A program made the position numbers and the translations under genes. 64,000 nucleotides of DNA, taken from assembly GCA_963664115.2 (NCBI GenBank), contig CAXWPJ010000009.1:576001-640000 (forward strand), given 5' to 3'. Positions 53,475 through 64,000 of this stretch are shown here, piece by piece; the stretch's first letter is position 1, and each line of letters begins with the position of its first letter. The DNA is from Terriglobia bacterium. Its GTDB lineage: Bacteria; Acidobacteriota; Terriglobia; 20CM-2-55-15. The notes under the pieces are model-generated. The model was not told the DNA's origin. It saw only the letters and a list, made by a program, of their open reading frames with translations, and did not search any database.

Positions 53475-54302
53475 ATGAGCTTTTCAGTAGTTACGAACCT
53501 GTCCTCGATTAACGCCCAGGCCACTTTGGAAGGTACCCAGATGGGATTGCAGCGGACTTTGGCCCGCTTGACATCCGGCTTGCGTATCAACAGCTCTGCC
53601 GACGACGCCGCCGGCCTGGCCGTGGCCAACCGCCACAAATTGGACAACACCGGCCTGACCGTCGGTATCCGGAGTGCGAATGACGCCATCAGCAAGCTGC
53701 AGATCGAAGACGGCGCGTTGAACAACATCGCCTCGTTACTCGATCGCGCTTTGACTCTGGCCAGCCAGGCGGCTTCGGACACCTTCACCGGTTCTCGGGC
53801 GACCCTGGATGCCGAGTTCCAGTCGGTGCTCGCCGAAATCACCCGAAACGCGCAGGCTGCCGGCATCGAAACCGGCAATGCGAACCTGAACGCACGGTCG
53901 GTTTTCGTTGGGAACACCCAGACCAGCACCTCCGCCAGCGTTACCTATGTTTCGTTTGCTCTGACCACAGCGGCCGACGCTCAGGGTCTGGGAGTCAGCA
54001 CGCAGAACATCACCAACCAGGCCAATGCCGCAGCCGCCATCTCAAGTATTCAGACAGCCGTCGGTAGCCTGGGTACAGTTCAGGGCCGCGTGGGTGCGGC
54101 GATGAACCGCTTGAGTTTTGCGGTTTCACAGGCGCAAACGATGTCGGTCAGTGTGCGGGCTTCGGAATCCCGAATCCGTGACGCCAACATCGCTGAGGAA
54201 GCGGCAGCATTGACGAAGTTCAACATCCTGACCCAGAGCGGTTTGGCCGCGCTGTCTCAGGCGAACGCTTCGTCCCAGTCCGTTCTTCAGCTACTCCGGT
54301 AA
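53475..54302 (+). CDS. fliC: Flagellin (275 aa, D0/D1 only)
   Basis: RLTSGLRINSSADDAAGLA; SRIRDANIAEE...QAN. Confidence 0.96.
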   Translation: MSFSVVTNLSSINAQATLEGTQMGLQRTLARLTSGLRINSSADDAAGLAVANRHKLDNTGLTVGIRSANDAISKLQIEDGALNNIASLLDRALTLASQAASDTFTGSRATLDAEFQSVLAEITRNAQAAGIETGNANLNARSVFVGNTQTSTSASVTYVSFALTTAADAQGLGVSTQNITNQANAAAAISSIQTAVGSLGTVQGRVGAAMNRLSFAVSQAQTMSVSVRASESRIRDANIAEEAAALTKFNILTQSGLAALSQANASSQSVLQLLR

Positions 54303-54410
54303 AATCTGGAGGCACCGGCGCCGAATTCCATGAACTCGAGTAGTTAGACATCGCAGGGAAGGATTTCGGCCGTCTGTACTCTGAATTTTTACGAAAATCT
54401 CCGGGGGTCT

Positions 54411-54439
54411 CTAAAGAGGCCTCCGGGGACTGCCGATAA
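54411..54439 (+). promoter_or_regulatory. Sigma28 promoter of fliD-fliS operon
   Basis: CTAAAG...GCCGATAA (TAAA-N16). Confidence 0.8.
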
Positions 54440-54478
54440 CGTGGTTGCGAACGAGATTGAGAGATCGAGGAGACAACC

Positions 54479-55834
54479 ATGGCAGGCGAGATTAACTTTT
54501 CAGGATTCAACGGCTTTGACTTCGGCCAAATCATCGACGTCACGATCGAAGCCGAAAGCGCTCCCCTAAAAGCATTACAGGACAAAGACAGCGACCTCAG
54601 AAAGAAGGATTCCGCGCTGGGATCGTTCGGCCTCGAAGTGGCCGACCTGCAGGATCCCGTTGGTGATCTTGTTCTTGGTACAGTATTTACAGACCTTGAG
54701 GCGTCCAGCACCGACGAAGACGTGGCCACGGTGACGCTCGGGGACACCGCGGTTATCGGGGCCTACGACCTCAACATCACCCAACTGGCTAAAGCCCAGG
54801 TCACGGCATCCACAAACGGATACACGAACACGACCGATACCGCCGCTGATGGCGGCACGATTTCGTTCACGATCGGCGCTGCGACCACGACCGACATCAC
54901 GATCAGCGCCGCGACCTCGGTGGCCGAGCTCAAAACCTTGATCAACAACCAGAATTCGGGCGTCGTCGCCTCTGTGGTTAATGACGGCACGAACAACAAG
55001 CTCGTAATTTCCAGTCGAGCTACGGGAGCCACAAACGGATTCACGATCAACAACAGCCTGACCAACGGTGTCGCCACCGTCGTGGCGTTTGCGGTGGGAC
55101 AGAGCCCCTCGGTCGGCAACAGTCAGGATTCACAGGACTCCGCATTTACCGTAAACGGCCTCGCGATTTCCAGCGCTTCGAATACAGTAACGGACGCGGT
55201 TCCGGGAACAACCGTAAAGCTGGTAGCGACTGGAACGGCAACCGTCAACGTGGAAGCCGACTACGATACGCTCAAAGAACACGTCAAGACCTTCATCACG
55301 GAATTCAATGCCTTGAAGGAATTCTTCGATAAGCAGACCAAAATCGACAGCATCACCGGAAAACCGGGGCCACTGGCCAATGACTCGATTCTGCGGCAGG
55401 CTCTGTCCGACGTTAAGAACATCATACTCACATCGAATGGTAACAACGGTACGTACTCATACTTGACCGAAGTCGGCGTCGAGTTTAAGCAGGATGGAAC
55501 TCTGACGCTGGACGACGAAACGTTCGACACCGCAATCAATACGGCGATTACAGATCTCCAGAAGCTCTTTCAGGGTGACGGCACCGTGGACGGCGTTTTT
55601 GACGATCTGAAATCGGCACTCAACAACATCGACAACACTGCGGGGTTGATCAAAACGACGCGGGACGCGTTGAGCCAGGCCATCAAGAACCTCCGCGACC
55701 AGATTCTCGGGCAGCAATTGCGCCTGGAGCTGAGACGGACGGAACTCCAGAAGTTGTATGCAGCGGCTGATCTGACCATGTCCCGACTCACGTCACAACA
55801 GGGCGCACTGGGATCGATCGGCTTTGCGTTCTAG
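54479..55834 (+). CDS. fliD: Flagellar filament cap
   Basis: N-terminal SGF.G.D, QLAKAQ, SNTVTDAVPG, DGTLTLD; between fliC and fliS. Confidence 0.9.
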   Translation: MAGEINFSGFNGFDFGQIIDVTIEAESAPLKALQDKDSDLRKKDSALGSFGLEVADLQDPVGDLVLGTVFTDLEASSTDEDVATVTLGDTAVIGAYDLNITQLAKAQVTASTNGYTNTTDTAADGGTISFTIGAATTTDITISAATSVAELKTLINNQNSGVVASVVNDGTNNKLVISSRATGATNGFTINNSLTNGVATVVAFAVGQSPSVGNSQDSQDSAFTVNGLAISSASNTVTDAVPGTTVKLVATGTATVNVEADYDTLKEHVKTFITEFNALKEFFDKQTKIDSITGKPGPLANDSILRQALSDVKNIILTSNGNNGTYSYLTEVGVEFKQDGTLTLDDETFDTAINTAITDLQKLFQGDGTVDGVFDDLKSALNNIDNTAGLIKTTRDALSQAIKNLRDQILGQQLRLELRRTELQKLYAAADLTMSRLTSQQGALGSIGFAF

Positions 55835-55877
55835 ACAGCAGTACGGGCGAGTGCCGTACAACAAGAAAGAGGAGCCT

Positions 55878-56321
55878 ATGAACTACTCAAACTATCAATC
55901 CGATGCTTACAAGGAAACGTCGGTAACGACTTCCAACCAGACCAAGCTGATCGTCATGCTCTACGAAGGCGCGATACGTTTTCTTCGTGAAGCGGTTGGT
56001 GCCATCGAAAACAAGGACATCGGTGCCAAAGCCAAGGCATGTGATCGCGCTCTTGCCATCGTTCAGCACCTCCATCTCTCTCTCGACATGGAACGTGGCC
56101 AGGAGATCTCCGCCGATTTGGACCTACTCTACCGCTTCGTAATTTCTAAGATTGTGGACGGGTCGAGCCAACTGTCGTCGAAGAACTTGGATGAGGCAAT
56201 CAAAGTGCTAGACACACTCTGTACTGCATGGACTGAGTTGGCCCAGAAGGAGCAAGTGGAATCGGTCCCTACCGAACTGCTGGCCCAAGCTGCAAAGGGC
56301 CGGCTGGCGCTGCACGGATAA
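55878..56321 (+). CDS. fliS: Flagellin export chaperone
   Basis: KLIVMLYEGAIRF, SLDME.G.EI. Confidence 0.92.
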   Translation: MNYSNYQSDAYKETSVTTSNQTKLIVMLYEGAIRFLREAVGAIENKDIGAKAKACDRALAIVQHLHLSLDMERGQEISADLDLLYRFVISKIVDGSSQLSSKNLDEAIKVLDTLCTAWTELAQKEQVESVPTELLAQAAKGRLALHG

Positions 56322-56335
56322 TTCAGGAGGAATAG

Positions 56336-56770
56336 ATGAATTCTGCTCAAATCATAACAAGCCTCGAACGCGAGAGGCAATTACTTGAAGAATTTCGCAG
56401 CGTATCCGAACAGCAACTCAGGCTCATCGGAGATGACAATATCGACGGTGTTGAAAACTTACTCGGACGACGGGCGGACCTGATGGTGGAACTGACCGCG
56501 ATCGAGTCCACGCTGGCCACGTGGATTGCCCAGATCCGTCATGACCCTTCGGTCACTCCTGAAATGATGCATGAGCTTCGGACTCTGAACGATGAAATCG
56601 TGGAGCTGGCCAAGGAAGTGGTGGCCATCGATGCTGAAACTCACTGGAAGCTCGACCTCATTCGCGAACGGACACAGGCCGAGTTGAAGGACATCGATAC
56701 GAGCGTCCGGGCGCTGACGCAATACGGGAACACCGTCGAGGCCCAACCGCGACTCGACATCGACGGCTAG
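56336..56770 (+). CDS. FlgN/FliT-like helical chaperone
   Basis: Helical 144-aa protein directly after fliS. Confidence 0.55.
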   Translation: MNSAQIITSLERERQLLEEFRSVSEQQLRLIGDDNIDGVENLLGRRADLMVELTAIESTLATWIAQIRHDPSVTPEMMHELRTLNDEIVELAKEVVAIDAETHWKLDLIRERTQAELKDIDTSVRALTQYGNTVEAQPRLDIDG

Positions 56771-56959
56771 GCGCGCACACGTTCTCCAGGTGCCCGACGG
56801 TTGATTTTGCCTACCCGGCAAATTTGACCCACCTCGAGGATCAAACTCGAAGCACCTCTCGCACTTCTTTATCACAAGAGCCTTGGCGTTCAGAAAACGC
56901 AGGAACTCTGCAGTCAACGTGCGCGAGAAAAATGACCGAACGATTTTCGTCACAAGAAC

Positions 56960-56988
56960 CTAAAGGTTTGTGACACCGGTACCGATAG
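56960..56988 (+). promoter_or_regulatory. Sigma28 promoter of flagellin 2
   Basis: CTAAAG...ACCGATAG (TAAA-N16). Confidence 0.75.
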
Positions 56989-57035
56989 AGAAAGTATCTG
57001 GCCAAATGGTCAGGTAAGAGAAACGAGGGAGTAGG

Positions 57036-57072
57036 CCAGCACGGATGCTGGTTTCCAAAATCACGGAGGATT
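57036..57072 (+). promoter_or_regulatory. Two CsrA-type GGA hairpins in the flagellin 2 leader
   Basis: CCAGCA[CGGA]TGCTGG and AATC[ACGGAG]GATT. Confidence 0.7.
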
Positions 57073-57077
57073 ATTCA

Positions 57078-57908
57078 ATGAGTTTTTCAGTAGTCACCAA
57101 CCTTGCATCCATCAACGCACAAGCGACTCTCCAGGGAACCCAGATGGGTCTTCAACGAACACTGGCGCGCCTGACTTCGGGATTGCGCATCAACAGCGCG
57201 GCCGATGACGCCGCCGGCCTCGCCGTTGCGAACCGCCACAAGCTGGATAACACGGGTCTGACTATCGGTATCCGGAGTGCCAACGACGCGATCAGCAAAT
57301 TGCAGATCGAAGACGGTGCGCTCAGCAACATCGCTTCGTTGCTGGACCGGGCCCTGACTCTGGCCAGCCAGGCCGCTTCGGACACCTTCACGGGTTCCCG
57401 CGCAACCCTGGATGCCGAGTTCCAGTCGGTCTTATCGGAGATCACCCGAAACGCGACGGCCGCCGGTATCGAGACGGGCAATACCAATTTGAGTGCCCGG
57501 TCGGTGTTTGTCGGAAACACGACGACCAACACGTCGGCGAGCGTGACCTACGTTTCGTTTGCACTCACGACTGCGGTCGACGCTACAGGACTGGGTGTCA
57601 GCACGCAGGACATCACGAGCCAGGCCAATGCGGCGACCGCCATCTCGGCCATCCAGGCCGCGGTCGGAAATCTGGGAACGGTTCAGGGGCGTGTCGGTGC
57701 GGCAATGAACCGACTGAGTTTCGCCATTTCCCAGGCGCAGACGATGTCGGTCAGTGTCCGGGCATCGGAGTCTCGGATCCGTGATGCCAACATCGCTGAG
57801 GAAGCGGCAGCACTGACGAAGTTCAACATCCTCACCCAGAGTGGTTTGGCCGCTCTGAGTCAGGCGAACCAGTCGGCGCAGTCCGTATTGCAGCTACTCC
57901 GGCAGTAG
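57078..57908 (+). CDS. fliC: Flagellin, second copy (276 aa)
   Basis: Close paralog of 53475-54302; GGAGG before ATG at 57078. Confidence 0.96.
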   Translation: MSFSVVTNLASINAQATLQGTQMGLQRTLARLTSGLRINSAADDAAGLAVANRHKLDNTGLTIGIRSANDAISKLQIEDGALSNIASLLDRALTLASQAASDTFTGSRATLDAEFQSVLSEITRNATAAGIETGNTNLSARSVFVGNTTTNTSASVTYVSFALTTAVDATGLGVSTQDITSQANAATAISAIQAAVGNLGTVQGRVGAAMNRLSFAISQAQTMSVSVRASESRIRDANIAEEAAALTKFNILTQSGLAALSQANQSAQSVLQLLRQ

Positions 57909-58458: not shown

Positions 58459-59843
58459 GAGTTATTGTCAAAAGTGGTGTTTAGGAGATTGATTCAAGCG
58501 GCGGCCTGATCGACTTGTGTCGCTTCGACACCATCGTTGAATTTCACTCCGATGATTACCTTGCTCAGATCATCGAATCCTCGTAATCGTCGCCAATTGT
58601 TCTCAGCGCACTGGCCCAGTTTGAACATCATGTGCAGCATGCCATCCCGTGTCAGGCAACCTCTGGATCGCTTCGTTCGGTGTCGAATGGTGGCAAAGGT
58701 CGACTCAATGGGATTCGTCGTTCTGATGCTCTGCCAGTGCTTGGCCGGAAAGTCGTAAAAGGCCAGCAGTTCCTCTCTGTCTTTCTGCAGGCAGAGTGTG
58801 GCTTTCGGATACTTCGGTTCATAGGTTTCAATGAACAAGTCGAATGCCTTCTCGGCGTCTGCCTTCGTCTCGGCCTGCCAGATCGAGTGCAGGGCCTGTT
58901 TCGCCTTCGCCTGGACCGACTTGGGCAGGCAGTTGAGGACGTTCATGACTTTGTGCATCCAGCAACGTTGTTGACGTGTCTCGGGATAGATTTCCTCCAG
59001 TGCGGCCCAGAACCCCATCGCACCGTCACCGATGGCCAACTTCGGAACATTCATCCCACGGGACTTCAGCTTCAACAAGACCTCGCGCCAACTCTGTGTC
59101 GATTCCCGTACACCGTCTTCGATCGCCAGGAAACGCTTCTCTCCGCGTTCATTCACGCCGATCACGACCAATGCACACAACTTGGTTTGTTCCGCCCGAA
59201 GTCCGCTGTAGATGCCGTCGGCCCAGACATAGACCCAGCGATCTGCATCCAAACGCTCCTCGCATCCGAGGCGGTACTGTTCGCCCCAAACCTGTTTCAA
59301 CCGCGATACCGTGCTCGCCGACAGACCCTGCGCCTGGGGACCGACAAGAACTTTTAGGGCCTCACCCATCTCGCCGCTGGAAACGCCTTTCAAATACAAC
59401 CACGGCACCGCTGCTTCCAGCGACTTCGTCTTCCGAATGTACGGTGGTACCAGGGCCGATCGGAACGTCACAGCTTCGCCCGTCTTGGCACGGACCTTCG
59501 GGATTTGGACTGTTACCGGACCCAATCCCGTCTGCAGTTCGCGTTCCGGCAGATAACCGTTGCGTACCACCCCGGCGTTTCCTGTCTCAGTTCGCCGGCC
59601 ACCGTGCTGGGATAGCAGCTCTGCCAATTCGGCTTCCACTGCGCGTTGGATCAGTTGCTGTGCCCCAACTCGTAGTAGTTCTGTTACTGGATCCTCAATC
59701 GTTTCTCGACCTTCCGGTCCATTCACGTTACTCTTGCTCACAGTGGCGTATCTCCTATGGTTGCTTTGAAGTTTTGTCACAACAAATCAACCAGATACGC
59801 CGCTCTTATTCAATCCCTCAAACACCAGATTCGGTTATAACTT
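58459..59843 (-). mobile_element. IS256-family insertion sequence, no target-site duplication
   Basis: Imperfect IRs AGTTATTGTCAAAAGTGGTGTTTAGGAGATTGA vs AGTTATAACCGAATCTGGTGTTTGAGGGATTGA; flanks unrelated; ends +/-1 bp. Confidence 0.85.
58494..59741 (-). CDS. IS256 transposase
   Basis: RNGY, YVWADGIY, GDGAMGFW, QRCWMHK, TTNPIES. Confidence 0.95.
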   Translation of the reverse strand: MSKSNVNGPEGRETIEDPVTELLRVGAQQLIQRAVEAELAELLSQHGGRRTETGNAGVVRNGYLPERELQTGLGPVTVQIPKVRAKTGEAVTFRSALVPPYIRKTKSLEAAVPWLYLKGVSSGEMGEALKVLVGPQAQGLSASTVSRLKQVWGEQYRLGCEERLDADRWVYVWADGIYSGLRAEQTKLCALVVIGVNERGEKRFLAIEDGVRESTQSWREVLLKLKSRGMNVPKLAIGDGAMGFWAALEEIYPETRQQRCWMHKVMNVLNCLPKSVQAKAKQALHSIWQAETKADAEKAFDLFIETYEPKYPKATLCLQKDREELLAFYDFPAKHWQSIRTTNPIESTFATIRHRTKRSRGCLTRDGMLHMMFKLGQCAENNWRRLRGFDDLSKVIIGVKFNDGVEATQVDQAAA

Positions 59844-60791
59844 GAGTTCATTCGAAGAAATCCGACTTACAAGAAAGAACAAGCATGGTTCGTCGATCGC
59901 AGAGCTGATTGGTTCGACAAGCACGGAATCGATCTCACTCGAATCTGGCCCGGGGATATCGACGATGCTGATAAATTCGTCCAGGCGCACCTCCATTCGG
60001 ACGACGAGATCTTGGACTGGCGTCTCGGTGTCGACGCCGACCGTGAGGCGATCCACCAGAAGTGGGGAGTAAAGTGGCCGTTCGATCCCGATCTATCCCT
60101 TCCAGCCAGCCGCATAAACCCCGGGAACATCTCGATTCCAGATTGTTTGGATGCAGTGCCGGTCGATGAAGATGTGTATTTCGACGGTGAATCTGCCTCG
60201 GACCGCGCTCGACAGATTCGATCCGACCTGCGGACACATCGGCAACACATCAAGATCCTTCCGACTGACCATCCTGGCCAACCCGGGCCGAACGGGACGT
60301 GGCGTTCCGTTGCGTATCAGATTGGACGTGCTTTGACTTGCTACCTCGGAGATATGGCACCCGACAACTTTCTCGGTTCCAGGATCGTGATGGACGTAGA
60401 AGGTGAGTCACTCGTGATACGGAAAGTCAATTTACCCGGCGACGCCCCCAGCGACATTAGATCAAGCGAGTTTAAGGTCGATCCGAGTCTTGGACGGCTC
60501 GGAAACTACCGACGTTTCAATGAATACATGGAAACTTTCAGCTGGCCCGACGATGACGCCCGTTTCTTCAAGCCATGGAACCCGGTTCCATTGGAAACGT
60601 ACGAGGGCTATCTCCGAGTATGGGACACCCGTAAGCTCAACCCTGACGTCAATTTTGCCGAGATCGCACGGCGACTCGACGGGGACGAATACGCTAAAGA
60701 ATGGCGGCGTGAATCTCTAAGGAAACAGGCTGCCCGCCAGCACCGGAAAGCTCAGGAACTAATCGAAGGCGGCTTTCTCGAGATCCACTAA
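59844..60791 (+). pseudogene. 5'-truncated FseA-like activator (DUF6499-like N-terminus, DUF2285-like HTH C-terminus)
   Basis: Frame open from the IS end: EFIRRNPTY...; C-terminus YLRVWD...FAEIARRL...W..ESLRKQ...AQELIEGGF. Confidence 0.6.
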
Positions 60792-60797
60792 TCCAGC

Positions 60798-60867
60798 CGG
60801 ACATCTGCCGTACACACCCCCTGTACCGCAGATGTCCGTTGACCTTTCCCACCTTGCCGAATTAAAT
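60798..60867 (+). promoter_or_regulatory. 17-bp inverted repeat abutting a sigma70-like promoter
   Basis: CGGACATCTGCCGTACA-N7-TGTACCGCAGATGTCCG (16/17), then TTGACC-N17-TTAAAT. Confidence 0.55.
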
Positions 60868-60874
60868 CGTATGT

Positions 60875-61096
60875 ATGCAGAACACAGCAGCCACGATTCC
60901 ATGCCCAACGTGCCGGCAGTCTCTTCGCGAGCAGCAAAGCAAGACCGGTAAACCGTATTTCATCTGTGGACCGTGCGGAGCTCAGATCTTTATCCGAATG
61001 CAATACGGAATCGATCTGTTGCACCAGACGGCCAGCGATCAGCAGCACGATCGGACAGAGAATCGGGGATTGGCCCATGCTGGGCCTGGAGTGTAA
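60875..61096 (+). CDS. Small zinc-ribbon protein
   Basis: CPTC...KPYFICGPC. Confidence 0.6.
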   Translation: MQNTAATIPCPTCRQSLREQQSKTGKPYFICGPCGAQIFIRMQYGIDLLHQTASDQQHDRTENRGLAHAGPGV

Positions 61097-61112
61097 ATAA
61101 CGGGGAAAATGA

Positions 61113-61140
61113 AAAACGGTGCGCGACAACGCACCGTTTT
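61113..61140. terminator. Hairpin after the zinc-ribbon gene
   Basis: AAAACGGTGCG-N6-CGCACCGTTTT. Confidence 0.5.
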
Positions 61141-61445
61141 CAGAGTTCTGAGGGCCAACCCGGTTAGGATCGGTAACAGAAATCAGTAGAAACCGAATTC
61201 TAGCACAGCAGCCTTCAGAGCTTCCCCATAAATAGCCCACAGCGGAACACCGTTAAGAACGGTTTCTGACGGTTTTCAGAACGGTTTTTTGAATTGTTTT
61301 GAATCTCGTTGGTTTTCGGAAAAACCGAAATCAAACCGTAGTTCTCTCGGAGTTCCCCTACGGGGAAACTTTTCACGGTGGAAACGGTTGATATTTTTCA
61401 AAATCGTTTCTAACGGAAATTAAACGGAAGGAGCGGAGTTTTTAA

Positions 61446-61886
61446 ATGCGAATCAAGATTCCTCTATCTGAAAAGACAGAACAGTTATTACCGACTGGCG
61501 ACTATGTGGCCGAAATCAACGAGGTCTCACCTGGCACCGCGAACACTGGAACCAAGTTCCTGAGAGTAGTCTTCGAGATCGTAGGACCGGATCATGAAGG
61601 CGCTCAGACGGATTGCCAGCTTTACCTAACCGAACGGGCAGCCTGGAAGCTGAACACGCTGCTCGCGGCAGCCGGAGTGGAACCCCAGGGCGACGAGATT
61701 GAGACGGCCGAACTTCTCGGATCGAAACTCCACATTCACGTCAACCAACCGCAGGACTCATCAGGGCAGCCAATGCGACCCGAAGTAACGAGTTTCAGAC
61801 GGTTGGACCCGACCCCGAACGGATCCGAACCGAACGGTCAACCGATTGAAAAACCGAAAATTACGGATGACGACGTTCCGTTCTGA
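61446..61886 (+). CDS. DUF669-like phage ssDNA-binding protein
   Basis: LLPTGDY.AEI.EV...G..FL.V.FEI; SSB-like acidic tail TDDDVPF. Confidence 0.7.
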   Translation: MRIKIPLSEKTEQLLPTGDYVAEINEVSPGTANTGTKFLRVVFEIVGPDHEGAQTDCQLYLTERAAWKLNTLLAAAGVEPQGDEIETAELLGSKLHIHVNQPQDSSGQPMRPEVTSFRRLDPTPNGSEPNGQPIEKPKITDDDVPF

Positions 61887-62146
61887 AACGGAACTCTGCG
61901 TGGCGTAGCGGCAAATGGAGCCGCAGCGGTACCGGTTCGATTCCGGGCGCTCACGAATGCCTGTCCTCCGGCCCGGTTAACCATTCCACGAGTGGGCAAC
62001 GGGGTCTGGCCGACGACGACCCACGACGGCGAACGGCATGCTGGTGCCGGATGGATGGGCGGCCCGGGGGTCCCAGGGGGCAGCGCCCCTTGGTGACCAC
62101 TCGGACACGACGAGTGGAGCGATGGCCAGAACAAGGCGAAACCGGG

Positions 62147-62182
62147 CACACCGGGGGCTATTGCTAGTAAGCCCCCGGTGTG
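62147..62182. other. Candidate rolling-circle double-strand origin hairpin
   Basis: Perfect 13-bp stem CACACCGGGGGCT/AGCCCCCGGTGTG with loop ATTGCTAGTA, immediately upstream of rep. Confidence 0.55.
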
Positions 62183-62205
62183 TCTCAAAACGGAAACGAA
62201 ACACG

Positions 62206-62826
62206 ATGAAACGGAACAAAACTCAACAAATCGAGACGTTCAAGGGAATCGACGATCCCGAGGAATCTCCGCAGTATGTGGGCGGGCAGTGGCGCGAAAG
62301 GATGAGTGGGGGAACCGACCTGAAAGTGGAAGCACATCCTCCACACAACCATGAAGCTCGGCAGCGCATGAACGCAGAAATTCCGGATGAAATGGGACCT
62401 TGGCTCGAAGGCCTTGCGCCCTGGGACTGGTTCTCGACCTATACGTTCAGCCGCCTTGCGACCGCCGAAGGCGCACACACGATGTTTCGGAAGCACCTCA
62501 AGTGGCTCGAACTGAAAGCGGGTCAACCCGTCTATGCGTTTCGTGCAGACGAGTACGGTGCGTTAAACGGTCGTTTTCACCTCCACGCACTGATCGGCAA
62601 TGTCGCGCGTTTAACCCCATGGTGTGGCGAGAAATTGCCACCTGGAACCTGGGGTCTTCCCTGTTGCGGGGTTCACGGATGGCCCTGCGGCCACGCTCGA
62701 GTGCTGCCCTACGATCCCGAGATCGGCGCCGGAGGCTACGTCGCCAAGTACATCACGAAGGAACTCGGCGACTTCGAATTGATTGGCTTCCCGGCGTCCC
62801 CTCAACCCGTACTTCAAAGTGGGTAA
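62206..62826 (+). CDS. HUH rolling-circle replication initiator (start uncertain)
   Basis: Motif I FSTYTF, motif II RFHLHALI, motif III YVAKY. Confidence 0.8.
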   Translation: MKRNKTQQIETFKGIDDPEESPQYVGGQWRERMSGGTDLKVEAHPPHNHEARQRMNAEIPDEMGPWLEGLAPWDWFSTYTFSRLATAEGAHTMFRKHLKWLELKAGQPVYAFRADEYGALNGRFHLHALIGNVARLTPWCGEKLPPGTWGLPCCGVHGWPCGHARVLPYDPEIGAGGYVAKYITKELGDFELIGFPASPQPVLQSG

Positions 62827-62830
62827 GCCG

Positions 62831-63457
62831 ATGTCAACAAAGCCGCGACATCAATCAGACCCGTTGTTGGACCCGGACGACGTCATCCAATGGCCTCCAA
62901 CCTCCGAGACAGATGAGCAGGCAGTTCTATTGGTAACGCCCACTCTGATTGAACGTCGTGCCGCCGTTGACGAGGATTTCCGTTCGCGGGTATTCGGGAC
63001 CGACCAAGCTGTCATGGATACGCTTGCCCGTGCAGCGATGGAAGCGGGCATGTCTCTGATGGATCTAATTCATTCGGAGCTTGGCAAGTCAAAGTCAGAC
63101 AGAATCACAACCGTTTTGAAGGAAACACTCAAGCGTATCTACGATGCCGAAAAACATCGCTTGGCGCGTCGACGGGAAGTCGAGCGGATCCGGAGATCGC
63201 GTCCGGGACGCGTCGTAATCAAAGGCCTCCCACTCAAACGATTCTACCGAGTCCGCCGAAGGTTGCTCGACAGTTGGTCCAACACGGAGCATTTTCTGAA
63301 CGAAGCGCAATGCGACCTAGAGCAGGAAAACGGACCACACGTGAAGCTTGTCACCATGTACCGGTACGGCGGACCAAGGATCAATGTGGTCGCCGTGTTC
63401 CAGGTCGATGCCCCTGAGGAGGTAGTTCGAAATGGCAAAGAAGAAACGGAAGGATAA
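62831..63457 (+). CDS. Hypothetical protein of the element
   Basis: ATG 4 nt after the rep stop; 208 aa. Confidence 0.6.
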   Translation: MSTKPRHQSDPLLDPDDVIQWPPTSETDEQAVLLVTPTLIERRAAVDEDFRSRVFGTDQAVMDTLARAAMEAGMSLMDLIHSELGKSKSDRITTVLKETLKRIYDAEKHRLARRREVERIRRSRPGRVVIKGLPLKRFYRVRRRLLDSWSNTEHFLNEAQCDLEQENGPHVKLVTMYRYGGPRINVVAVFQVDAPEEVVRNGKEETEG

Positions 63458-63611
63458 GAAGAAACGGAAGACCCGATCTGTCAGTCTCGAAGGTTTCGAG
63501 ATCGGAACCGCAGAATGGTTTCCAGATTGTGAACCGACAACTTACGTCGACGGCTTCCCGGCCTACTGGATCGACGGAAAGTTGGTGATCTATATCCCCC
63601 TGGTCGCGTAA
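63432..63611 (+). CDS. 59-aa protein with Lys/Arg-rich N-terminus
   Basis: GAGGAGG RBS; MAKKKRKDKKKRKTRS...; stop abuts next ATG; below ORF-track cutoff. Confidence 0.55.
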   Translation: MAKKKRKDKKKRKTRSVSLEGFEIGTAEWFPDCEPTTYVDGFPAYWIDGKLVIYIPLVA

Positions 63612-63860
63612 ATGATCGGCAAACCCATCGCACTCATCCAAGTCCCAAACCAGCGACTCTTTAGCGTCCGAGCCGCAGCCCAATACCTGGGGATCCATGA
63701 ACAGACTCTCCGAAAGCTAACGGAAGAGGGTGAGGTCCGGGCACGCCGATCAGGAAGCCGGCGCGTGTATGCGCTGGAGGATCTGGATTCCTACGTCGCA
63801 TCGCTTCCTGAGTGGTACGATGCCGGCGGCGAAGAATCCGGGACAGAAGGGAGGTCCTAG
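63612..63860 (+). CDS. Excisionase-type HTH_17 DNA-binding protein
   Basis: LFSVRAAAQYLGIHEQTLRKL...G...RRVYALEDLD. Confidence 0.82.
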   Translation: MIGKPIALIQVPNQRLFSVRAAAQYLGIHEQTLRKLTEEGEVRARRSGSRRVYALEDLDSYVASLPEWYDAGGEESGTEGRS

Positions 63861-64000
63861 ATGGGAATTCTTCGCAGGCGAGACCAATCCGGCGGTAACC
63901 GGATTGAACTCTCGAAGCGATGGCCGGACGGGTCCCGGTTCCGGCGTTACTTTCCAAACAAAACGATGGCAGCAAAGACGCTGGCCAGGATTGAAGAATC
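63861..64000 (+). CDS. Probable integrase N-terminus (partial)
   Basis: GGGAGG RBS; ATG abuts xis stop; MGILRRR...RWPDGSRFRRYFPNKTMA resembles an arm-binding domain; catalytic domain outside the window. Confidence 0.45.
   Translation, partial: MGILRRRDQSGGNRIELSKRWPDGSRFRRYFPNKTMAAKTLARIEE

What the first reader, a model, noticed from the sequence alone, without database searches (positions are those of the whole stretch)
59844..64000. Small integrative element combining an FseA-like activator, SSB-like protein, HUH rolling-circle Rep and xis/int
Seen: co-oriented genes for a DUF6499/DUF2285-like protein, zinc ribbon, DUF669-like protein with a DDDVPF tail, a minimal ~200-aa HUH Rep with two Tyr (YVAKY), two unknown proteins, an HTH_17 excisionase and an integrase-like start. 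No capsid, Zot or conjugation gene is visible. Known: FseA-type activators switch on excision of conjugative ICEs such as ICEMlSym. Inference: an ICE-type activation switch driving a rolling-circle replicon suggests an unclassified satellite or integrative plasmid class.
Basis: partly seen in the sequence, partly recalled or inferred. Interest (0 to 1): 0.75.

Follow-up and report, generated by a model that had tools for sequence, protein, structure and literature searches.

The report
Broken acidobacterial integrative rolling-circle plasmid
This is the right half of a 10-kb mobile DNA element inserted at a leucine tRNA gene and cut in two by an insertion sequence; it belongs to an acidobacterial family predicted to copy itself as a rolling circle, a known kind of element, and its unusual feature is a broken gene resembling the activator of conjugative elements.

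Summary
The genes are real and as described. The integrase is complete and ends beside tRNA-Leu(CAG). The other att copy and the element's left half lie about 600 kb away on the same contig: two identical IS256 copies have swapped target duplications. Rejoined, the element is 10.1 kb, carries two candidate anti-phage systems, and its FseA-like gene is one frame split by the IS. The Rep has an HUH fold and marks an Acidobacteriota family (53 groups from 94 loci). 25 of 26 groups with enough flank have a recombinase downstream; others sit on 1.3-3 kb contigs with terminal repeats and no integrase. A fixed-spacing motif upstream of rep (35 of 43 groups, once in this genome) is the likely replication origin. 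The FseA-like gene was found only here: 0 of 150 upstream ORFs in relatives. So the family is an integrative rolling-circle plasmid with pSAM2-like activator-rep-xis-int logic but no transfer genes, and the 'ICE switch' is a single, inactivated case. This scan has already noted similar integrase-plus-HUH elements in other genomes. Verdict: new variant of a known kind.

The parts
58459..59843 (-). IS256-family copy (1385 bp) that interrupts the activator gene. Its twin at G000:C9:31772-33156 carries the reciprocal 9-bp target duplications, so the element's left half is C9:26815-31771 (outside the window): att copy (63 bp), DUF5131, TcmP, 61-aa ORF, DuOB, two DUF488 genes and the first 24 codons of the activator
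59844..60791 (+). 3' part (315 of 336 codons) of an FseA/RovC-like activator gene; DUF6499-type motif split at the IS, DUF2285-type domain at the C-terminus
   Evidence: PF10074 over cut-off; PF20109 weak, E 0.025, residues 1-14; Atlas neighbours carry PF20109/PF10074 at score 0.93; one frame, no stops across the IS site
60798..60867 (+). 17-bp-arm inverted repeat (60798-60838, 7-nt spacer) directly followed by a -35-like hexamer at 60839; candidate activator box and promoter of the mobility operon (could also be a terminator)
   Evidence: (I14); consensus scan found no sigma-70 promoter or terminator here; role inferred from the FseA box position in PMC10359603
60875..61096 (+). 73-aa zinc-ribbon ORF
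   Evidence: weak Pfam hits only; similar to the N-terminal zinc ribbon of some family Reps (phmmer E 0.003-0.04)
61446..61886 (+). DUF669 protein with acidic tail; predicted single-stranded DNA-binding protein
   Evidence: one relative (L033) has a homologue next to rep
61994..62027 (+). conserved non-coding boxes upstream of the origin hairpin; candidate single-strand origin or second Rep site
   Evidence: alignment A4; first box in 23 of 43 groups; function inferred
62147..62183 (+). candidate double-strand origin: 13-bp stem, 10-nt loop holding the family motif TTGCTWGWAR, then 7 nt, then GTGT
62206..62826 (+). minimal HUH Rep (206 aa from the ATG at 62206; start not certain), no helicase domain; H125, H127, Y178, Y182; Cys/His insertion C140, C153, C154, H157
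62831..63457 (+). 208-aa ORF of unknown function
   Evidence: one non-self homologue at 58% identity; no family
63432..63611 (+). 59-aa basic ORF of unknown function
   Evidence: no family or homologue found
63612..63860 (+). HTH_17 excisionase-like protein
63861..64000 (+). start of a 363-aa tyrosine integrase that runs past the window end to G000:C9:640952; it is followed by a convergent tRNA-Leu(CAG) at C9:640980-641063, whose 3' end holds the 63-bp att core (C9:640969-641031) repeated exactly at C9:26815-26877

Best explanation
This is the right half of a 10.1-kb element integrated at tRNA-Leu(CAG) and broken by IS256, which when intact likely worked as an integrative rolling-circle plasmid carrying candidate anti-phage genes. 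Shown: att repeats, complete integrase, excisionase-like gene, HUH-motif Rep, a family-wide non-coding motif just upstream of rep, defence-candidate cargo, and the IS split. Inferred cycle: the FseA-like protein would bind the inverted repeat just after its own gene and switch on the co-oriented zinc ribbon-SSB-rep-orf-orf-xis-int genes; Xis and Int would excise a circle; Rep would nick in the hairpin loop at 62160-62169; host helicase and polymerase would roll off a single strand coated by the DUF669 protein; Int would re-insert at the tRNA 3' end. With no transfer genes it would spread as a hitchhiker, most likely in phage particles. In this genome the activator is cut and the att sites are about 614 kb apart in the assembly, so the copy is probably inactive.
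For: att: 63-bp exact repeat of the tRNA 3' end. Split: the only reciprocal target-duplication pair among 48 full IS copies (27 matched, 21 unmatched); both interrupted genes (activator 336 aa; WbsX 342 codons) become stop-free when the flanks are swapped back. Rep: model pLDDT 84; best solved match SIRV1 ORF119 Rep, Z 8.2, rmsd 3.1 over 105 residues, then AAV5, vientovirus and nanovirus Reps at Z 6.3-6.7; 142 viral matches at E<=1e-3, named ones are replication proteins; H125, H127, Y178 invariant in 101 sequences. Family: 15 of 15 genome loci are titled Acidobacteriota lineages; 25 of 26 groups with >=2 kb downstream have a co-oriented recombinase (18 tyrosine, 7 serine) and 16 of 26 a tRNA within 4 kb; five have 20-52 bp att repeats giving 4.7-7.5 kb elements. 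The same Rep is the only recognisable replication gene on small integrase-free contigs with terminal repeats (L071 1283 bp, L047 2689 bp, L037 two ~1.5-kb units). Origin: core motif in 33 of 43 groups, 0 of 43 downstream control stretches (several short or empty), shuffle mean 0.7, max 4 of 200; with one more allowed letter 35 of 43, spacer exactly 7 nt in 35 of 35; once in the 4.9-Mb genome. A gene next to rep is filled by three unrelated SSB-like families: DUF669, SpoVG-like (7 groups; PF04026 E 0.002 in one member) and an acidic-tail family (6 groups). Cargo matches PADLOC candidates PDC-M30/M41 and all three PDC-M45 genes. Precedent for activator -> rep-xis-int: pSAM2 pra; FseA binds an inverted repeat next to the -35 box.
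Against: No excised circle, single-stranded form or transcript was observed; contig depth in run X1 was flat (flank 12.2, left 11.8, right 12.2), and the higher right-half depth in X3 and X5 is not a copy number. Regulation by the FseA-like protein is untested and rests on one broken gene. The consensus scan found no promoter at the proposed site and the repeat's geometry (17-bp arms, 7-nt spacer) differs from the FseA box (hexamers 16 bp apart). Z 8.2 is near what unrelated ferredoxin-like folds score (a ribosomal chain at Z 6.2), and Foldseek on PDB gave nothing under E 0.001. 8 of 43 groups lack the origin motif even with the relaxed pattern. Terminal repeats on metagenome contigs suggest but do not prove circles. 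The transfer route has no direct evidence.
Confidence: 0.68

Rival explanations
1. Same replicon, but the FseA-like gene is a passenger or has another target: it came in with the cargo and does not control rep-xis-int.
For: No homologue in relatives or in three database searches; the only other over-cut-off PF10074 match among 401 phylum genomes has no family Rep or recombinase within 9 kb; no promoter by consensus scan.
Against: It sits where many relatives keep a co-oriented 180-350 aa gene of unknown family, several followed by short repeats right after the stop codon; a strong inverted repeat abuts a -35-like hexamer straight after it.
Confidence: 0.17
2. It is an integrative mobilizable element: the HUH protein serves as a relaxase, the conserved motif is an oriT, and a conjugative helper moves it.
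For: HUH fold, tRNA integration, no own mating pore, and an activator type known from conjugative elements.
Against: Sequence and fold matches are to viral-type replication initiators, not relaxases; the Rep is the only recognisable replication gene on small integrase-free contigs; no VirB4 (PF03135) match in the 97%-complete genome. Replication and mobilisation are not exclusive.
Confidence: 0.1
3. It is a decayed filamentous or microvirus prophage, or an ICE remnant, that lost its structural or transfer genes.
For: The Rep's nearest annotated matches are microviral and other small-virus replication proteins (7 records, E 1e-4 to 5e-3); two ORFs are unexplained.
Against: Both ends are mapped and no virion or transfer gene was detected between them; no Zot match in the genome; no family Rep in 2.9 million viral contigs with the two patterns used; att-bounded relatives of 4.7-7.5 kb show no capsid or Zot hit among ORFs scanned.
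Confidence: 0.05

Closest known systems
pSAM2-type actinomycete integrative and conjugative elements (PMC2440964; passages and section 8 part 1 read)
   Same: About 10 kb, tRNA integration by a tyrosine integrase, rolling-circle Rep, rep-xis-int order, switched on by an element-encoded activator (Pra).
   Different: No FtsK-type transfer gene or Kor repressors; much smaller Rep of the PF23343 group; activator is FseA-like; host is an acidobacterium; own SSB-like gene.
Integrated and free HUH-Rep plasmids of Kazlauskas et al. 2019 (PMC6668415; passages read)
   Same: HUH Rep on att-bounded integrated elements without virion genes; both free and integrated states.
   Different: pCRESS Reps carry an SF3 helicase, this one does not; the passages name likely new integrated-element clusters from Clostridiales, Actinobacteria, Neisseriales, Bacteroidetes and MSBL1, not Acidobacteria. 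Their supplements were not opened and may list relatives.
FseA of ICEMlSymR7A and RovC (PMC10359603; passages, sections 18, 25 and part 1 of 19 read)
   Same: AWEFLRRN-like motif near the N-terminus, DUF2285-type C-terminal domain, inverted repeat beside a -35 hexamer upstream of excision genes.
   Different: Described from Proteobacteria and conjugative elements; here one frame without the +1 frameshift (as in about 39% of their homologues), longer (336 aa), no QseM found (one PF10074 match in the genome), different repeat geometry, IS-broken.
VEIMEs and other minimalist phage satellites (PMC9618062, PMC11389934; passages read)
   Same: Up to 17 kb, integrase, excisionase, replication and defence genes, no capsid genes; rolling-circle concatemers proposed.
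   Different: Defined by being found in virions, which was not testable; their named replication genes are primase/helicases or plasmid initiators.
Thaumarchaeal cryptic integrated element NitAQ6f-E2 (PMC6563490; passages read)
   Same: Integrated element with a rolling-circle endonuclease, classed as neither provirus nor ICE.
   Different: Archaeal, SNJ1-like Rep.

Membership tests
HUH Rep endonucleases | Motifs I, II (HUH) and III (catalytic Tyr) | tested here: met
   H125, H127, Y178 invariant in 101 sequences; Y182 invariant in the 25 closest but not listed at >=90% in the 101
HUH Rep endonucleases | HUH fold | tested here: met
   Model pLDDT 84; top four solved matches are Reps (Z 8.2-6.3); 142 viral matches E<=1e-3
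HUH Rep endonucleases | Nicking-joining at the origin | not testable with these tools
   Candidate origin mapped; needs a bench assay
FseA/RovC activators | AWEFLRRN-like motif (DUF6499) | tested here: met
   WEFI ends the left piece and EFIRRNP opens the right piece, one frame; PF20109 itself only E 0.025 on the right piece and nothing in the genome search
FseA/RovC activators | C-terminal DUF2285 domain | tested here: met
   PF10074 over cut-off
FseA/RovC activators | RovC-like fold | tested here: inconclusive
   Single-sequence model of the last 163 residues, pLDDT 66; best Z 4.3
FseA/RovC activators | Binds an inverted repeat beside the -35 box and activates | not testable with these tools
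   A repeat is in that position; geometry differs
ICEs of the ICEMlSym/Tn4371 kind | Relaxase and type IV secretion genes | tested here: not met
   None among the 13 ORFs scanned between the att copies; PF03135 0 matches in G000
pSAM2-type AICEs | tRNA integration with activator, rep, xis, int | tested here: met
pSAM2-type AICEs | FtsK-type transfer protein | tested here: not met
   No such hit among ORFs between the att copies
Inoviridae | Zot/pI morphogenesis ATPase and coat genes | tested here: not met
   PF05707 0 matches in G000; no PHROG structural family as a leading hit in 13 ORFs
pCRESS plasmids | Rep fused to SF3 helicase | tested here: not met
   206-aa Rep, nuclease domain only
Phage satellites (VEIME/PICMI type) | Packaged in helper-phage particles | not testable with these tools
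   No family Rep in viral contigs; 7 origin-motif matches there, none with a family Rep

The most novel reading that the evidence does not exclude
Acidobacteria host an undescribed family of replicons built on a roughly 150-200 aa HUH Rep with a Cys/His (likely zinc) insertion and one defined origin, which moves between 1.3-kb free circles and tRNA-integrated defence islands by swapping recombinase, SSB and activator modules; this member recruited a true FseA-type switch from conjugative elements to fire rolling-circle replication, the first such use outside Proteobacteria and outside conjugation. The minimal rep-plus-origin circle would be a ready vector backbone for a phylum with few genetic tools.
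Probability: 0.3. Interest if true: 0.65.

Novelty: new variant of a known kind. Interest (0 to 1): 0.42.

Why it matters
It defines a Rep family and its probable origin in Acidobacteriota, with free and integrated forms, which makes replication directly testable and could give small native vectors. It extends FseA-like proteins to a non-conjugative element in another phylum, but in one broken copy only. It also shows how IS256 spread can split and freeze a defence island. The general kind (integrase plus HUH Rep at a tRNA) is in print and was seen repeatedly by this scan, so surprise is moderate.

Tried and rejected
Looking for the second att copy near the window failed (best local repeat 11 bp); it was found by whole-genome BLAST. 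Activator homologues: none by word search (0 of 1553 candidates), plasmids, viral contigs, or 400 phylum genomes (one weak hit, E 0.008). By eye the upstream genes of family F12 (L024, L026/L027, L042, L068, L101) resembled the activator's C-terminus; rejected as homologues: no PF10074 hit in 14 of 14 relative C-terminal pieces, hhalign probability 0.1%, Atlas uninformative. Fold searches with the activator model gave nothing and did not list RovC. Sequence search of PDB with the Rep profile gave nothing relevant. Rep not found in PLSDB plasmids. Rfam found only the tRNA and one chance-level match. Viral-contig scan with the broad alignment A2 could not run. Origin motif not found in 9 of 10 fetched loci L109-L118; the hit (L118) is a close family member, so the motif is specific to the close family. 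GC skew did not tell a real rearrangement from a mis-assembly. Read depth as evidence of amplification was set aside; run X4 barely covers the left half and its flank. The Rep tree (40 rows) places the query with L025, L047, L029 and L038; serine-recombinase rows fall on one side of a branch that also holds tyrosine-integrase loci left unlabelled, so no order of events is claimed.
Full report
Observation. The window is G000:C9:576001-640000. The eight co-oriented ORFs are present and the family calls hold: PF10074 over cut-off, DUF669 and a PHROG SSB family, REP_ORF2-G2P just under cut-off, HTH_17. Read on in the genome, the last ORF is a 363-aa tyrosine integrase with its catalytic residues, ending just before a convergent tRNA-Leu(CAG). 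The host is inferred to be a Terriglobia acidobacterium: genome G053, listed as same class, holds a contig of the same length and genes as locus L022, titled Terriglobia.

Boundaries. A 63-bp exact copy of the tRNA 3' end lies at C9:26815-26877, about 614 kb away, in the same orientation. The IS256 copy left of the finding and a copy at C9:31772 have each other's 9-bp target duplications, the only reciprocal pair among 48 full copies, of which 27 are matched. Swapping the flanks back gives a stop-free 336-codon activator and a stop-free glycosyltransferase frame, and an element of 10,136 bp. The left half holds DUF5131, TcmP, a 61-aa ORF, DuOB and two DUF488 genes, matching PADLOC candidates PDC-M30/M41 and PDC-M45 A, B, C; these are candidate, not proven, defence systems. 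In 4 of 4 runs laid the right-half contig starts inside the IS end, and in 3 of 4 the left-half contig ends inside the IS start; no uninterrupted allele appeared in the rows shown, though tables were cut, contigs drop rare variants and one run may be the source. So the IS insertion is real. Whether the 600-kb displacement is biological or an assembly swap is open.

Rep. The 28 close proteins (query included; 25 aligned) keep motifs I-III and an invariant Cys/His insertion (C140, C153, C154, H157), probably a zinc site (inference). The profile reaches 2496 representatives at E<=0.001; in 101 aligned sequences H125, H127, G162 and Y178 are invariant. The model (pLDDT 84) matches SIRV1 ORF119 (Z 8.2, rmsd 3.1, 105 residues), AAV5, vientovirus and nanovirus Reps and 142 viral models; Foldseek on PDB gave only weak rows, many of them Reps. 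Annotated matches are small-virus replication initiators (6 of 7 records annotated so); none in plasmids.

Family. Scans gave 15 genome loci, all titled Acidobacteriota lineages, 79 metagenome loci from a capped scan and none in viral contigs. The 94 loci form 53 groups by single linkage at 90% Rep identity. Of 26 groups with at least 2 kb downstream, 25 have a co-oriented recombinase (18 tyrosine, 7 serine) and 16 a tRNA within 4 kb. Five have clear att repeats (4.7-7.5 kb elements). Three contigs have terminal repeats and no integrase, and a fourth has an internal 95-bp repeat at its end. The family is patchy: 3 of 60 relatives by single protein, 5 of 400 phylum genomes by profile. Neighbouring slots are modular: three unrelated SSB-like families and varied regulators and cargo (ORFs picked by a heuristic, 150 scanned from 32 loci, two of them just downstream of rep).

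Origin. Unbiased word counting upstream of rep found a shared motif. The core is in 33 of 43 groups with enough flank (query included), 0 in downstream controls, and the full motif occurs once in the whole genome, at 62161; shuffles give 0.7 on average, 4 at most; core plus GTG at exactly 7 nt occurs in 35 of 43. In the query and six relatives it forms the loop of a 12-16 bp perfect stem, with different stem sequences, as described for rolling-circle nick sites (PMC2440964); in the other groups no long stem was found. A likeness to the pC194/phiX174 nick sequence is recalled, not checked. The groups are related, so the counts show conservation, not independent trials. Further conserved boxes lie 130-170 nt upstream.

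Activator. It has the AWEFLRRN-like motif and DUF2285-type domain that PMC10359603 uses to define FseA homologues, and Atlas neighbours carry PF20109 and PF10074 (13-37% of members; recognition below the tool's threshold). An inverted repeat touches a -35-like hexamer right after it, the position of the FseA box, though with other geometry and no consensus promoter. It is not a family trait: 0 of 150 neighbouring ORFs, 0 of 15 host genomes of family loci over cut-off, 2 of 401 phylum genomes over cut-off including this one, and the other has no family Rep nearby. Relatives often have a different unknown gene in the same slot; homology was tested and not found.

Mechanism. Shown: integration site, integrase, Rep motifs and predicted fold, conserved non-coding motif, cargo, IS damage. 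Inferred: activator on, excision, nicking in the loop, rolling with host enzymes and the element's SSB, re-integration. Transfer is inferred to need a helper, probably a phage: no VirB4 or Zot match in the genome.

Comparison and novelty. It works like pSAM2 without transfer genes and resembles the integrated HUH plasmids of PMC6668415; it fails membership of ICEs, AICEs, inoviruses and pCRESS. Nine paper searches listed no description of this acidobacterial family or of an FseA-like gene on a rolling-circle element; the library lacks most subscription papers and no supplements were opened. The Charybdis preprint (abstract and outline only) is unrelated. The scan's index showed eight similar integrase-plus-HUH notes from other genomes, none by sequence to this Rep and none with FseA; these are unchecked notes, and two gave me the pCRESS and VEIME leads. 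Verdict: new variant of a known kind, interest 0.42.

Noticed in passing
G000 whole genome: 48 full copies of this IS256 element, 21 with unmatched target duplications, pointing to recent expansion and much IS-driven rearrangement.
   Followed up: partly
window left of 58459 and L002:13157-13825: A WbsX-type glycosyltransferase gene is split by the same IS pair; if contiguity in between is right, the 601 kb from C9:33157 to 634458 would close into a circle.
   Followed up: partly
L042:1156-1240, L068:3115-3190, L101:5748-5830: An unnamed family of 180-270 aa genes (F12) upstream of rep; in these three an ACGAAA...TTTCG-type inverted repeat, often doubled, follows the stop codon (seen by eye): a candidate new activator-operator pair.
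   Followed up: partly
L037 (3059 bp), L071 (1410 bp), L032 (1779 bp), L047 (2719 bp): Very small integrase-free contigs with the family Rep, three with a CopG-like gene (named by eye); L037 is two diverged units in tandem, each with its own origin motif.
   Followed up: partly
L058 group (17 loci): Loci linked at >=90% Rep identity sit beside different tRNAs (Ser, Ala, Met, Lys), suggesting the integration module is exchanged faster than Rep.
   Followed up: no
L010:6482-7825, L012:6739-7935, L015:6113-7546, L075:2464-3540: A recurrent 350-480 aa protein with an N-terminal HTH_17 and a long charged region in family members; function unknown.
   Followed up: no
L016:7214-7930, L020:6070-8301, L021:1-1686: Cas3 genes (L020, L021) and a regular repeat array (L016) lie just upstream of serine-recombinase members; not checked whether inside the elements.
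   Followed up: no
window 61100-61445: AT-rich non-coding stretch with many short AAAC/AACGG-type repeats between the zinc ribbon and DUF669 genes; unexplained.
   Followed up: no
window 53475-57908: Two near-identical short flagellin-like genes flanking fliD/fliS-like genes (names by eye).
   Followed up: no
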